DNA of 63,700 nucleotides, filler included, from Reclinomonas americana ATCC 50394 (Eukaryota): the NCBI GenBank assembly GCA_048213135.1. It is 6 parts of 3 records of this genome, joined end to end, with 100 filler letters (N's around TTAATTAATTAA, not from the genome) between each part and the next. Parts side by side here need not be neighbours in the genome. Positions count along the whole stretch, not along the records: positions 1 to 17,412 come from PS015336.1; 5 more parts are not named here. One strand, written 5' to 3'. Of the stretch, positions 871 to 3,800 are shown piece after piece. Position 1 is the first letter of the stretch. Each line of letters begins with the position of its first letter. A model generated the notes under the pieces. It was given only the letters and a program-made list of their open reading frames with translations, ran no database searches and had not been told where the DNA came from. Both the position numbers and the translations under genes were made by a program.

Positions 871-3800
871 ATGTCGACACGGGAATTGAATGGTCACCTT
901 GGCGCGGTGTTTTGTGTCGCCGTCACTCTCGACGGACAGCACGTAGTGAGTGGAAGCTCTGAAAAAACCATTCGAGTTTGGTCACTGTCGAGTGGAGAAG
1001 AAGTGCAACATAAACATTTAGGCAACGGGGTGCGATCAGTTGCCATCACTCCCGATGGAAGGCACATTGTGAGTGGGAGCAGGGACCCGAGAGTGCGCCT
1101 GTGGTCGCTGGCAAGTGGAGAAGAAATTCGACAGTTGGAGGGACACAATGGCTGGGTGAATTCTGTCGCGGTCACTCCCGATGGTCAGTTCATTCTGAGT
1201 GGGAGTGATGACAGGACAGTGCGGGTGTGGTCTGTGGCGAGTGGAGAAGAAGTGTATCAGTGGGAGGGACACACTGGCTGTGTGTTTTCTGTCGCCGTCA
1301 CTCCCGATGGTCAGCACATCGTGAGTGGGAGTGGAGACAACACCGTGCAAGTGTGGTCTTTGGCGAGTGGAGAAGAAGTGCGCCGATTGCAGTTGGAGGG
1401 ACACACTGATGCGGTGAGGTCTGTCGCCGTCACTCCTGACAATGAACACATCGTGAGTGGGAGTGCTGACAAGACAGTGCGAGTGTGGTCACTAGAGAGT
1501 GGAGAACAAGTGCAACGGTTGGAGGGACACACTGGCTGTGTATTTTCTGTCGCCATCACTCCCGATGGGCAGTACATTGTGAGTGGGAGTGATGACACGA
1601 CAGTGCGAGTGTGGTCACTAGCGAGTGGAGAACAAGTGCAACGGTTGGAGGGACACACTGGCTGTGTATTTTCTGTCGCCGTCACTCCTGATGGTCAGCA
1701 CATTGTTAGTGGGAGTTCCGACTGTACAGTGCGAGGTATGTCGCCGTGCATGCACACTTGCACCCTATGTCCATGAGTTCAAGTCCTCTCACAGTTTCCG
1801 ACATTGATACCACGACGCCGCCGTCGCTGCCTGCACTGTGGCTACCGGAAGTGCTTATAATGAATAGCTACCAAAGTGCACGTGTGGATCAGGCTTTAGC
1901 TCACGTTGTATGGGAGATTCTCTCGTGCAGATTTGAGGTGAGCTCCTCTCGGATTGCTTGTCTCTTGCGATTGTTGGCGATTAATCTCTCATTTTTTGTC
2001 GTTTGACATAGAATTACGACAGCAATCATAGCGTGGTCTTGGAGGGACGACACACTCTCTGCGTTGCGTCTGTTGCCGTCACTCCTGATAATCTGCATAG
2101 TGTAAGTGGGAGTGCGGACAAGACAGTGCGAGTGTGGTCACTGTTGCGTGGAGAAGAGGTGCGACGGTTGGAGGGACACACCCGCAGGGTGTCGGCTGTT
2201 ACCGTCACTCCTGATGGTCAGCACATTCTGAGTGGGAGTGCTGACAAGACACTGCGAGTGTGGTCACTATCAAGTGGAGAAGAGGTGCGACGGTTGGAGG
2301 GACACACCCGCAGGGTGTCGGCTGTTACCGTCACTCCTGATGGTCAGCACATTCTGAGTGGGAGTGCTGACAAGACACTGCGAGTGTGGTCACTATCAAG
2401 TGGAGAAGAGGTGCGACGGTTGGAGGGACACACCAGCACGGTGTCGTCTGTTGCCGTCTCCCCCGATGGTGAGCACATTGTGAGTGGGAGTGCTGACAAG
2501 ACACTGCGAGTGTGGTCACTGTCAAGTGGAGAAGAGGTGCGACGGTTGGAGGGACACACCAGCACGGTGTCGTCTGTTGCCGTCTTCCCCGATGGTGTGC
2601 ACATTGTGAGTGGGAGTTTCGACGAAACTGTGCGAGTGTGGTGTCTGGTGCGATGGAAGGAAGTACGACGGTTAACAGGACACGCTGGAAGGGTGTTGTC
2701 TGTCGCCGTTACTCCAGATGGTCAGCACATTGTGAGTGGGGGCGCGGACACAGAAGTGTTTTTGTGGTCAGTGATGAGTGGAGAAGTAGTTCGACGGTTG
2801 ACGGGACACACTGATGCAGTGCATTCCGTCATTGTTGCTCCCGATGGTCATCACGTTGTAAGTGGGGGCATGGACAACAGTATGCGATTATGGGAATTAT
2901 ATGAACACGAAGGTGTGTGTTTCTTCGTGCTTGTTCGTATCCGTATGTTTGCTCATGCATTATCTCGATTATGTTCAAGGTTCCTGTCATTCTCCTTCCC
3001 TCCGACAGCAAGCGCGACTTAGCAGTAGAGCATCGTTGCCTCATATCACTCCCGCCCCCGTCGCTGCCGACCAGGCATTATCACCGCAACTTGCTGAACT
3101 TGAGGCACGGCTGCGAGAAGAGTTGGCCAAGTCTGCAGCCCTCGACGCGCGGCTAGTTGCCACGGAACAGCAGCTGCAGGCAGAGTGCGCTATCGTCGCG
3201 CAGCTTCAGATAGACCGTGCTTCTTCTCAGCAACGCCAGGAAGCGATGGCCGCTGACCTCTCCACCGCTCTTCAACAACTGGCAGGTGAGCAGCGACAAT
3301 CGCAGCTGCTACAGGGTGAACTCCGCACTGTCCAGCTCGAGAGGGACGACTTTGTCCTCCGCAACAGCAACCTCACCGCTTCCATCGACGTGCGACTACA
3401 GGTGGAGCGCGCTGCCGCCGCCGAGCAACAGACGAGACTTCAAGCTGAGTGCGACCAAGTTGTCGCACAACTCTCCGCCATTCGTCAACAACTGGCGGCG
3501 TCGGCGTGGCAGTCGCATCAATTGCAAGCCGAGCGAGACCGAATCGTATCCCAGCTTTCTGTCTTACAGGGCCAGTCGGCGACCTTGCAAGATCAACTTC
3601 GAGATGCCGAGCGACTGCTGGAGGAGAAGGATCACATCATTTCCCGACTCCGGCAGGATCTCCTCCTCGCTCAAGGTCGGTCTCTCAGACTTTCCTCCAC
3701 AATCTCAGCATTTGCCCTCCCGCCCACCTACCCTCCTGTCTCTGCATTCAGTCGACACCTCAGTGCGCCGCTTCGAGTGGCCTGAGATTGTGCAAGCCAC

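What the first reader, a model, noticed from the sequence alone, without database searches (positions are those of the whole stretch)
1030..2890. HET-E-like WD40 repeats: homogenised scaffold with hypervariable surface positions
Seen: 126-bp units are near-identical in DNA, and one pair is exact. Amino acids vary sharply just after GH (NGWVN, TGCVF, TDAVR, TRRVS, TSTVS, AGRVL, TDAVH) and in SGSxDx (DDR, GDN, ADK, DDT, SDC, FDE). Known: Podospora HET-D/HET-E/HNWD WD40 repeats undergo concerted evolution with diversifying selection at comparable top-face positions. Inference: a repeat-shuffling receptor-diversification system in a protist.
Basis: partly seen in the sequence, partly recalled or inferred. 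Interest (0 to 1): 0.75.

Follow-up and report, generated by a model that had tools for sequence, protein, structure and literature searches.

The report
Repetitive WD40 sensor on a kinase gene
A microbial eukaryote gene joins fourteen partly recently copied WD40 blades to a long helix and a plant/animal-immunity-type kinase, and the blades differ most at the residues that WD40 proteins use to grip partners, as in fungal self/non-self receptors, but the resemblance is partial and the draft sequence leaves the gene's integrity open.

Summary
Observation partly confirmed. The stretch holds 14 WD40 units of 126 bp in two sets of seven, split by an intron. They open a gene (871-4907, + strand) that continues into a roughly 195-residue helix and an RLK/Pelle/IRAK-type kinase.

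Only some units are near-identical. Units 9 and 10 are exact copies, unit 11 is 92% identical to them, the central units are 70-87% alike and the edge units 50-75%. Mean amino-acid identity is 0.63, below the 80-100% reported for HET-E.

Variation does peak at the four codons under selection in HET-E, which are the top-face hot spots R1-2, R1, D-1 and D+1. A shared-branch codon model gives omega 3.1-4.4 there and 0.37-0.49 in the scaffold. That signal comes from exon-1 units. The same test misbehaves on old, saturated blades of a neighbouring gene.

Three young, out-of-register 126-bp copy events show that the array is being remodelled.

There is no NACHT or HET domain, so this is not an HNWD member. 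Reads were unavailable, so assembly error in the exact repeat is not excluded. The natural exon 1-2 splice is out of frame.

Earlier notes of this scan describe related WD40 arrays and repeat-kinase genes elsewhere in this genome.

Verdict: a new variant of a known kind, of moderate interest.

The parts
871..1735 (+). Exon 1. The ATG is at 871. It holds WD40 units 1-7 (first propeller); unit 7 is cut after strand c begins.
   Evidence: ORF 817-1776. Pfam WD40 x7, E 8.4e-82. Unit alignment.
889..1137 (+). Units 1 and 2 (889-1011, 1012-1137). These are old, diverged edge blades.
   Evidence: Mean identity to the other units is 0.68 and 0.63.
1138..1734 (+). Units 3-7 (starts 1138, 1264, 1396, 1522, 1648). 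This is the exon-1 central group, 76-87% identical. Two extra codons lie at 1390-1395.
   Evidence: The omega signal at the hot-spot codons comes from this group (omega 6.5, LRT 19.1).
1497..1680 (+). Young out-of-register copy. 1497-1554 equals 1623-1680 exactly (58 bp). It spans the tail of one unit and the head of the next.
   Evidence: Unit 6 versus unit 5: tail 1/48 differences, head 21/78.
1736..2031 (+). Intron 1 as read from the best sites: donor G|GTATGT at 1736, acceptor AG at 2030-2031.
   Evidence: This splice rebuilds columns 30-32 of unit 7, but the frame then breaks.
2032..2050 (+). Junction defect. Against the unit consensus, 28 nt are missing (column 32 base 3 to column 41) and 3 nt are inserted. 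This gives a frameshift and a stop 24 codons later if the canonical splice is used.
   Evidence: In-frame joins exist only with weak or unlikely donors, and 0 of the 16 in-frame GT/GC-AG pairs found use donor 1736.
2032..2914 (+). Exon 2. It holds WD40 units 8-14 (second propeller).
   Evidence: Pfam WD40 x7, E 1.3e-77. The AlphaFold2 model has pLDDT 92.1, pTM 0.87 and 27 strands. Best solved relative is 2ymu, E 1.8e-175.
2148..2434 (+). Perfect 126-bp tandem repeat, 2.28 copies. It contains the exact pair, unit 9 (2171-2296) and unit 10 (2297-2422).
   Evidence: Exact identity at lag 126 over 2148-2308. 126 of 126 bases match.
2355..2585 (+). Third young copy event. 2355-2459 equals 2481-2585 with one mismatch.
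2675..2914 (+). Units 13 and 14. These are old, diverged edge blades.
   Evidence: Mean identity 0.70 and 0.57.
2915..3008 (+). Intron 2 (GT...AG, phase 0).
3009..3675 (+). Exon 3. It has a roughly 24-residue linker followed by one continuous helix (residues 25-219 of the exon), a coiled-coil-like stalk.
   Evidence: AlphaFold2 pLDDT 86.4, with a single helix. Pfam gives only a weak coiled-coil family hit, E 0.009.
3752..4907 (+). Kinase domain in four exons (3752-3939, 4014-4120, 4183-4471, 4548-4907 including the stop). The three introns within it (4-6) and intron 3 before it are canonical and 62-76 nt long.
   Evidence: Splice sites. Pfam Pkinase hits on two exons. Best solved matches are IRAK1 (E 3.4e-9) and, for the C-lobe exon, 18 of 18 plant RLK/RLCK kinases. 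Catalytic-loop and DFG motifs are visible in the translation.

Best explanation
The stretch is the binding module of one cytosolic multidomain gene. It encodes two seven-bladed WD40 propellers, a long helical stalk and a C-terminal Ser/Thr kinase of the RLK/Pelle/IRAK type.

Shown:
- The blades belong to the 'repetitive' WD40 class, the same class as PkwA, Nostoc 2YMU and the fungal NLR repeats.
- The array has been remodelled recently by local copying of 126-bp segments between neighbouring blades. The copies are out of register with the blade boundaries.
- The edge blades are old.
- The blade count stays at 7 + 7. This favours replacement, by gene conversion or by unequal exchange followed by loss, over simple growth of the array.
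- Amino-acid replacements are concentrated at the top-face hot-spot codons R1-2, R1, D-1 and D+1, which are the codons under diversifying selection in HET-E. At these codons replacements exceed the synonymous rate of the surrounding scaffold.

Inferred:
- The top faces are being retuned to bind different or changing partners.
- Binding is relayed to the kinase through the helical stalk, probably as a dimer.
- The gene may be one sensor variant of a larger family of repeat-stalk-kinase genes in this genome.

Whether the partners are foreign molecules (immunity or allorecognition) or endogenous is unknown.
For: Architecture:
- Pfam finds 7 + 7 WD40 repeats and Pkinase.
- The AlphaFold2 propeller model has pLDDT 92.1 and the stalk is a single 195-residue helix.
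- Five of the six introns are canonical and in frame.
- Kinase matches go to IRAK1, SymRK, BIK1 and BRI1.
- The nearest library kinases are streptophyte RLK/Pelle proteins at about 27-37% identity among the ten best.

Recent copying:
- Exact lag-126 runs of 58, 161, 40 and 64 bp are present.
- Unit 9 equals unit 10.
- Adjacent units are 77.7% identical and non-adjacent units 71.1%. The edge units are the most diverged.
- The pairwise homoplasy index is 0.242 against a permuted mean of 0.391, and 0 of 2000 permutations were as low.

Hot spots:
- Columns 6, 8, 24 and 26 rank 1st, 3rd-4th and 5th of 42 in entropy.
- By the rule of Wu 2012, columns 6, 8 and 24 are R1-2, R1 and D-1. In the model they lie in the d-a loop, at the start of strand a and in the b-c turn.
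- With a priori classes and shared branch lengths, omega is 3.1-4.4 at these four codons (LRT 14.9-25.4 against omega = 1) and 0.37-0.49 in the scaffold.
- Per-site tests give omega > 1 at p < 0.05 for columns 6, 8, 26 and 34, and p = 0.054 for column 24. The flanking columns 7 and 25 are under strong purifying selection, the pattern Paoletti described.
- 0 of 29 simulations under omega = 1 reached the observed LRT of 15.1; the maximum was 4.5.
- Control column sets give omega 0.55-1.12.
Against: - The same test on the seven old blades of the neighbouring stand-alone WD40 gene returns omega 125 (LRT 22). That is an artefact of saturation, so the method can overstate omega.
- Simulated nulls are biased slightly upward, with median omega about 1.2.
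- Within this gene the signal comes from units 3-7 (omega 6.5). The youngest group (units 8, 9, 11, 12) gives 1.43, p = 0.47.
- Counted within the hot-spot codons alone, dN/dS is about 1.0-1.1.
- High variability at these positions is generic to WD40 proteins.
- 72-77% of amino-acid differences lie outside the four codons.
- Five of the 14 units share the same b-c turn residues.
- Internal identity (0.63) is below the levels reported for HET-E-type repeats.
- The units do not form a clade separate from the neighbour gene's units.
- The mosaic signal can be explained by out-of-register tandem duplication alone.
- The canonical exon 1-2 splice is out of frame. The gene may therefore be broken or mis-sequenced.
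- Short-read assemblies are known to omit or create such repeats, and the exact repeat could not be checked against reads.
Confidence: 0.55

Rival explanations
1. This is an ordinary lineage-specific WD40-kinase scaffold protein. The blades arose by a few recent tandem duplications and have since drifted under relaxed constraint at surface positions. There is no diversifying selection and no recognition role, and the omega > 1 result is a product of method and sample size.
For: - The test gives an absurd omega of 125 on old blades.
- The simulated null is biased upward.
- The youngest units show no significant excess.
- dN/dS within the hot-spot codons is about 1.
- Most differences lie outside the hot spots.
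- Hot-spot variability is a general property of WD40 proteins.
- About 2% of protist and fungal WD40 proteins have internal identity above 0.4 (Hu 2017).
Against: - Replacement distance at the four a priori codons (1.14) is 2.7 times the synonymous distance of the scaffold (0.42) in central units that are not saturated.
- LRT values are 15-25, and 0 of 29 null simulations come close.
- Control column sets do not show the effect.
- The flanking codons 7 and 25 are strongly constrained.
Confidence: 0.3
2. The exact and near-exact units are an assembly artefact. Either a repeat was collapsed, expanded or mis-ordered, or the 28-nt gap at the exon 1-2 junction is an assembly error.
For: - The window is a gapped draft with 22 runs of N totalling 5052 bases.
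- The perfect repeat is 287 bp long, longer than a short read.
- Illumina assemblies of HET-type WD40 arrays omit or create repeats (Ament-Velasquez 2025, passages read).
- The junction is out of frame by one base.
Against: - The unit count is exactly 7 + 7, and the second set folds as a closed seven-bladed propeller.
- There are no N runs before base 10534.
- The hot-spot pattern and the 70-87% identities of most units do not depend on the exact pair.
Confidence: 0.12
3. The locus is a recently inactivated pseudogene. The frameshift at the propeller junction ended its function, and the pattern seen is a relic of earlier evolution.
For: - The canonical splice gives a stop 24 codons into exon 2.
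- None of the 16 in-frame GT/GC-AG alternatives uses the strong donor.
- Exon 2 has no start codon of its own before unit 13.
Against: - All seven exons are otherwise open, and the other five introns are canonical and in frame.
- Scaffold omega is 0.37-0.49.
- The kinase motifs are intact.
- A one-base sequencing error would produce the same picture.
Confidence: 0.2

Closest known systems
WD40 sensor domains of the Podospora anserina HNWD/NWD NLRs (HET-E, HET-D, HET-R)
   Same: - The unit is 42 residues / 126 bp.
- The same four codons carry the excess of replacements. They flank the conserved Val and Asp and lie on the top face.
- Sequence has been copied recently between units.
   Different: - There is no HET or NACHT domain. 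The output here is a helix plus an RLK/Pelle-type kinase at the C-terminus.
- Internal identity is 0.63-0.71, against about 85% or 80-100%.
- The unit number is fixed at 7 + 7 in this copy.
- Exchange between loci and length polymorphism are not shown.
Highly or moderately repetitive WD40 proteins (Hu et al. 2017), e.g. Nostoc punctiforme 2YMU and Thermomonospora PkwA
   Same: - The best solved relatives are 2ymu (E 1.8e-175) and PkwA 5yzv (E 7.3e-86).
- Repeat-level duplication is recent, and the hot-spot sites are diverse in an otherwise conserved repeat.
- The D-H-S/T-W tetrad columns are conserved.
   Different: - This is a eukaryotic gene with introns.
- The kinase lies C-terminal to the repeats, not N-terminal as in PkwA, and is of the RLK/Pelle/IRAK type.
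- A long helix sits between the two modules.
RLK/Pelle/IRAK kinases fused to WD40, e.g. Chara braunii GBG83357.1 and wheat Lr39/Lr41 (WTK8-MSP-WD40)
   Same: - An RLK/Pelle-type kinase and WD40 repeats sit in one chain.
- In wheat such a protein is an immune receptor (bioRxiv 10.64898/2026.02.17.706082, passages read).
   Different: - The Chara kinase C-lobe is only 33% identical, and its WD40 repeats are ordinary and diverged (30% identity).
- In Lr41 the WD40 module is C-terminal and contacts helper NLRs, while a kinase domain binds the effector.
- Neither protein has a repetitive 14-blade array or the helical stalk.

Membership tests
HNWD/NWD fungal NLRs (HET-E type) | N-terminal HET (or other cell-death/effector) domain | tested here: not met
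   The protein starts 6 codons before blade 1. Pfam on all exons shows only beta-propeller/WD40 families, a weak coiled-coil hit and kinase families; for the two WD40 exons only the best 25 of 64 and 58 matched families were displayed.
HNWD/NWD fungal NLRs (HET-E type) | NACHT NTPase between the effector domain and the repeats | tested here: not met
   No NACHT or other STAND NTPase hit appears in any exon.
HNWD/NWD fungal NLRs (HET-E type) | High internal conservation of the WD40 units (about 85% amino-acid identity; 80-100%) | tested here: not met
   Mean pairwise amino-acid identity is 0.634 for 14 units and 0.714 for units 3-12. The threshold is met only locally, for units 9, 10 and 11 (100% and 92% DNA identity).
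HNWD/NWD fungal NLRs (HET-E type) | Excess of replacements at codons 7, 9, 25 and 27 of the unit (top face) | tested here: met
   Omega is 3.1-4.4 with LRT 14.9-25.4. The per-site pattern agrees, and 0 of 29 null simulations reach the observed value. Caveats come from the controls.
HNWD/NWD fungal NLRs (HET-E type) | Repeat-number polymorphism between isolates | not testable with these tools
   No whole genome is held and no sequencing run was listed.
HNWD/NWD fungal NLRs (HET-E type) | Exchange of units between loci (concerted evolution of the family) | tested here: inconclusive
   In a joint tree of 21 units, this gene's units have short branches and interleave with the long-branched units of the neighbouring gene at low support. 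Only three loci were available.
Repetitive WD40 proteins (Hu et al. 2017: HR >= 0.7, MR 0.4-0.7 internal identity) | Internal sequence identity above 0.4 (MR) or 0.7 (HR) | tested here: met
   Identity is 0.634 overall, which is the MR class, and 0.714 for the central ten units. I used a simple pairwise mean, not the authors' exact procedure.
Repetitive WD40 proteins (Hu et al. 2017: HR >= 0.7, MR 0.4-0.7 internal identity) | [quoted passage not shown] | tested here: met
   His (column 3) is present in 12 of 13 units, Ser (column 21) in 13 of 13, Asp (column 25) in 12 of 13 and Trp (column 31) in 12 of 12. The hot-spot columns have the highest entropy.
PkwA-type bacterial Ser/Thr kinase-WD40 proteins | N-terminal kinase followed by C-terminal WD40 repeats, in a prokaryotic gene | tested here: not met
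   The domain order is reversed and the gene has six introns. The WD40 units themselves are similar (5yzv, E 7.3e-86).
RLK/Pelle/IRAK (TKL) kinases | Closest sequence relatives are RLK/Pelle/IRAK kinases | tested here: met
   The best solved match for one exon is IRAK1. For the C-lobe exon, 18 of 18 solved matches are plant RLK/RLCK kinases. All 8 of the top library hits whose names were looked up are streptophyte proteins, and several carry RLK-type extra domains. Only single exons were searched.
RLK/Pelle/IRAK (TKL) kinases | Placement inside the group in a kinase phylogeny | not tested
   No tree was built. Spliced sequence could not be submitted, and identities are only about 35% or lower.

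The most novel reading that the evidence does not exclude
The gene is one member of a NOD-less class of intracellular recognition receptors in a microbial eukaryote. In this class, interchangeable, self-copying repeat sensors sit on a common helical-stalk-plus-IRAK/RLK-type kinase chassis. The sensor here is WD40; unchecked notes of this scan report ankyrin and TPR sensors elsewhere in the genome. The sensors would diversify their binding faces by unit copying plus selection. This would be a kinase-coupled counterpart of the fungal and bacterial NLR repeat sensors, used for immunity or allorecognition.
Probability: 0.17. Interest if true: 0.8.

Novelty: new variant of a known kind. Interest (0 to 1): 0.47.

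Why it matters
Repeat sensors that keep a uniform scaffold while changing a few contact residues are the way fungal NLRs such as HET-E, and many bacterial STAND proteins, generate recognition diversity. Until now this mode has been tied to NOD/STAND ATPases.

A gene that shows the same hot-spot pattern and recent unit copying, but is wired to an RLK/Pelle/IRAK-type kinase in an unidentified microbial eukaryote, would suggest that the repeat-diversification strategy has been joined independently to the kinase branch of innate-immune signalling. It would also offer a small, testable model: a 14-blade sensor, a stalk and a kinase.

If the gene instead proves to be an ordinary scaffold protein or a broken copy, it is simply another moderately repetitive WD40 protein of the kind already catalogued.

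Tried and rejected
- Whole genome: none is held for this window. Units could not be extracted genome-wide.
- Sequencing runs: none was listed for 600-5000, and no RNA holder was listed. I therefore did not lay reads. Assembly, splicing and expression remain unchecked.
- Close relatives:
  - A search with the exon-2 propeller among longer proteins gave 7321 hits at E <= 1e-20 out of 8000 scored. The 120 listed were 27-56% identical. They were fungal NLR-like and bacterial WD40 or kinase proteins, with no copy of this gene.
  - The C-lobe kinase exon gave no hit at E <= 1e-12 by the word-indexed search.
  - The exhaustive search gave 525 hits at E <= 0.001, 27 at E <= 1e-10 and none at E <= 1e-30. 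Identity among the ten best was 27-37%.
- Earlier-notes look-ups by sequence found nothing relevant, so the link to the ankyrin/TPR-stalk-kinase genes noted elsewhere in this genome is untested. Searches gave 0 windows, and one search gave one unrelated bacterial window sharing 3 of 109 words.
- No other kinase paralogue lies in the window.
- Nei-Gojobori dN/dS counted within the hot-spot codons is about 1. I rejected it as a measure because multi-hit codons inflate the synonymous count; 86 of 144 pairwise comparisons at these codons differ at 2-3 bases.
- I considered a strict four-gamete argument for shuffling of head and turn 'cassettes' and dropped it. The observed combinations fit out-of-register duplication (by eye).
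- Literature searches listed no paper describing a repetitive WD40-stalk-RLK/Pelle kinase in a protist (listings and abstract starts only). That is not proof that none exists.
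Full report
WHAT IS THERE

The + strand of the first 5 kb holds one gene. Two long open frames, 817-1776 and 2033-3022, each carry seven WD40 repeats (Pfam PF00400, E 8.4e-82 and 1.3e-77). Downstream lie a 220-codon exon with only a weak coiled-coil family hit, and four short exons that together make a protein kinase domain (Pkinase hits on two of them). Tandem Repeats Finder reports the array as 907-2813, period 126, 15 copies, 69% matches.

By coordinates there are 14 units, seven in exon 1 (starting at 889) and seven in exon 2 (starting at 2045). 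A profile built from them finds 22 units in the whole window:
- 14 in this gene;
- one at 17538-17630;
- seven on the minus strand at 62378-63232.

The window is a gapped draft with 22 N runs totalling 5052 bases, none before 10534. No whole genome is held for it.

GENE MODEL

Five introns have canonical, in-frame GT-AG sites and are 62-94 nt long. Intron 1 is the exception.
- The strong donor (G|GTATGT at 1736) and the acceptor at 2030-2031 rebuild columns 30-32 of unit 7.
- Relative to the unit consensus, the next 28 nt are then missing and 3 nt are inserted.
- The frame shifts and stops 24 codons later.
- Sixteen in-frame GT/GC-AG combinations exist, but none uses that donor.
- Exon 2 has no start codon of its own before unit 13.

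As assembled, the gene is therefore either mis-sequenced by one base at 2032-2050, spliced unconventionally, or recently broken. No sequencing run was listed for the locus, so this stays open.

The second set of seven units folds, without an alignment, as a closed propeller. The best model has pLDDT 92.1, pTM 0.87 and 27 strands; the other four models scored 51-58. Exon 3 folds as one helix of 195 residues (pLDDT 86.4).

The kinase exons match IRAK1 best (E 3.4e-9). For the C-lobe exon, all 18 solved matches are plant RLK/RLCK kinases (SymRK at 6.5e-7, then BIK1, BRI1 and others). An exhaustive search of 1.84 billion representatives gave no hit below E 1e-30, and identity among the ten best was 27-37%. 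The 8 top hits whose names were looked up are all streptophyte proteins.

HOW ALIKE ARE THE UNITS

- Units 9 and 10 are identical, and 2148-2434 is a perfect 2.28-copy repeat.
- Unit 11 is 92% identical to them.
- Units 3-7 are 76-87% alike and units 8-12 are 70-92% alike.
- Units 1, 2, 13 and 14 are 50-75% identical to the rest.
- Mean pairwise amino-acid identity is 0.634 for all 14 units and 0.714 for units 3-12.

This places the protein in the 'moderately repetitive' class of Hu et al. 2017 (HR >= 0.7, MR 0.4-0.7). That paper also notes that about 2% of protist and fungal WD40 proteins exceed 0.4, and that hot-spot sites are diverse in repetitive WD40 proteins (passages read). The identity here is below the roughly 85% reported for nwd genes (Dyrka 2014, passages) and the 80-100% reported for HNWD genes (Ament-Velasquez 2025, passages).

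'Near-identical in DNA' is therefore true of a minority of units. The neighbouring stand-alone WD40 gene is older still, with amino-acid identity 0.538 and scaffold pS 0.62.

RECENT COPYING

Exact identity at a lag of 126 bp occurs at 1497-1554, 2148-2308, 2355-2394 and 2396-2459. These tracts run from the tail of one unit into the head of the next. In blade register, unit 6 therefore has the tail of unit 5 (1/48 differences) but not its head (21/78). The pairwise homoplasy index is significant, with 0 of 2000 permutations as low as observed, but out-of-register tandem copying explains it without further recombination.

Adjacent units are more alike than non-adjacent ones (77.7% against 71.1%), and the edge units are the most diverged. 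Both are typical of arrays that turn over by local exchange.

The count remains 7 + 7, so copies must have replaced earlier units. I infer gene conversion, or duplication followed by loss.

In a joint tree, this gene's units have short branches and do not form a clade apart from the long-branched units of the neighbour gene. Family-wide concerted evolution is not shown.

WHERE THE VARIATION SITS

In a register with Glu-Gly-His as columns 1-3, the conserved Val is column 7 and the Asp is column 25. Paoletti et al. 2007 found codons 7, 9, 25 and 27 under positive selection, flanking conserved codons 8 and 26. These lie in the d-a loop and the b-c turn on the top face (sections read). They correspond to my columns 6, 8, 24 and 26.

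By the sequence rule of Wu et al. 2012, columns 6, 8 and 24 are the general WD40 hot spots R1-2, R1 and D-1 (passages). The model's strands place them accordingly.

These four columns rank 1st, 3rd-4th and 5th of 42 in entropy. Columns 34, 5 and 17 are also highly variable, and columns 17 and 34 lie in bottom-face loops. The four columns hold 23-28% of pairwise amino-acid differences and the top seven hold 38-47%. Five of the 14 units share the same b-c turn residues.

SELECTION TESTS

Nei-Gojobori counts:
- Scaffold dN/dS is 0.33-0.40.
- Within the four hot-spot codons the ratio is about 1.0-1.1.
- That ratio is distorted by multi-hit codons: 86 of 144 comparisons differ at 2-3 bases.
- Among the nine unique central units, replacement distance at the four codons (1.14) is 2.7 times the synonymous distance of the other 38 codons (0.42).

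Codon-model results. I wrote a GY94-type likelihood with branch lengths shared between the two a priori classes.
- Omega at the four codons is 3.1-4.4, against 0.37-0.49 for the scaffold.
- The LRT against omega = 1 is 14.9-25.4. This holds for 9 or 13 units, and for the whole unit or the head only.
- Per-site fits give omega > 1 at p < 0.05 for columns 6, 8, 26 and 34, and p = 0.054 for column 24. Columns 7, 10, 15, 21, 22, 25 and 31 are strongly constrained.
- In 29 simulations under omega = 1, with trees re-inferred, the largest LRT was 4.5.
- Control column sets gave omega 0.55, 0.58 and 1.12. The two bottom-loop columns gave 2.05 (p = 0.10).

Results against this reading:
- The same test on the seven old blades of the neighbour gene gives omega 125 (LRT 22). 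That is clearly an artefact of saturation.
- The simulated null has a median omega of about 1.2.
- The signal in this gene comes from units 3-7 (omega 6.5, LRT 19.1). The youngest group (units 8, 9, 11, 12) gives 1.43, p = 0.47.
- The test cannot separate faster replacement from scaffold homogenisation with retained hot-spot diversity, although both would be HET-E-like regimes.

COMPARISON AND VERDICT

The units are of the PkwA/2YMU/fungal-NLR repeat type. The best solved relatives are 2ymu (E 1.8e-175) and PkwA (E 7.3e-86). Library hits are fungal NLR-like proteins and bacterial WD40/kinase proteins at no more than 56% identity.

The gene is not an HNWD member. It has no HET or NACHT domain, its internal conservation is below that family's, and polymorphism is untested. 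It works like that family in two respects: the same hot-spot codons carry the excess variation, and units have been copied recently.

WD40 plus RLK/Pelle kinase in one chain exists in two known cases:
- In Chara braunii, with ordinary diverged repeats at 30% identity.
- In the wheat receptor Lr39/Lr41, where the WD40 part contacts helper NLRs (passages).

Unchecked notes of this scan describe stand-alone WD40 arrays with variable top faces, and ankyrin- or TPR-stalk-IRAK-type kinase genes, elsewhere in this genome. I confirmed only that two stand-alone WD40 loci with a shared tail lie in this window (57% identity).

I rate the finding a new variant of a known kind, of moderate interest. Three points remain unresolved: the correctness of the assembly at the exact repeat, the frame at the exon 1-2 junction, and the robustness of omega > 1.

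Noticed in passing
window 62186-63370 (-) and 17514-17800 (+): The first locus is a stand-alone seven-blade WD40 gene of 395 codons. The second is the last blade plus tail of a similar gene, cut by gaps at 17413-17512. They share a C-terminal tail of about 55 residues, with 57% identity over the last blade plus tail. The blades are older than those of the kinase gene, with amino-acid identity 0.54.
   Followed up: partly
window 42927-44849 (+): An open frame of 641 codons has TPR_12 and TPR_10 repeats (E 2e-25 and 5e-15) in its C-terminal part. This is the TPR type common in NLR-like proteins. The N-terminal part has no Pfam match.
   Followed up: no
window 5155-6006 (+): An open frame directly downstream of the kinase gene has an NADP oxidoreductase (F420_oxidored, pyrroline-5-carboxylate-reductase-like) match, E 1e-12.
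   Followed up: no
window 17413-17512, 38166-38265, 51312-51411, 55337-55436, 61260-61359: Five sites share the same layout: 44 N, then 12 bases, then 44 N. The regular form looks like masking or a scaffolding convention and not like gaps of measured size.
   Followed up: no
window 11819-13419 and 28022-28744: There are long arrays of 24-25-nt and 21-nt tandem repeats. The first flanks a 963-N gap. CT/GA-rich low-complexity tracts are also common throughout the window.
   Followed up: no
window 2032-2050: The link between the two propellers lacks the c-d loop and most of strand d of a regular unit. There is a 28-nt gap and a 3-nt insert against the consensus, so the canonical splice is one base out of frame.
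   Followed up: yes
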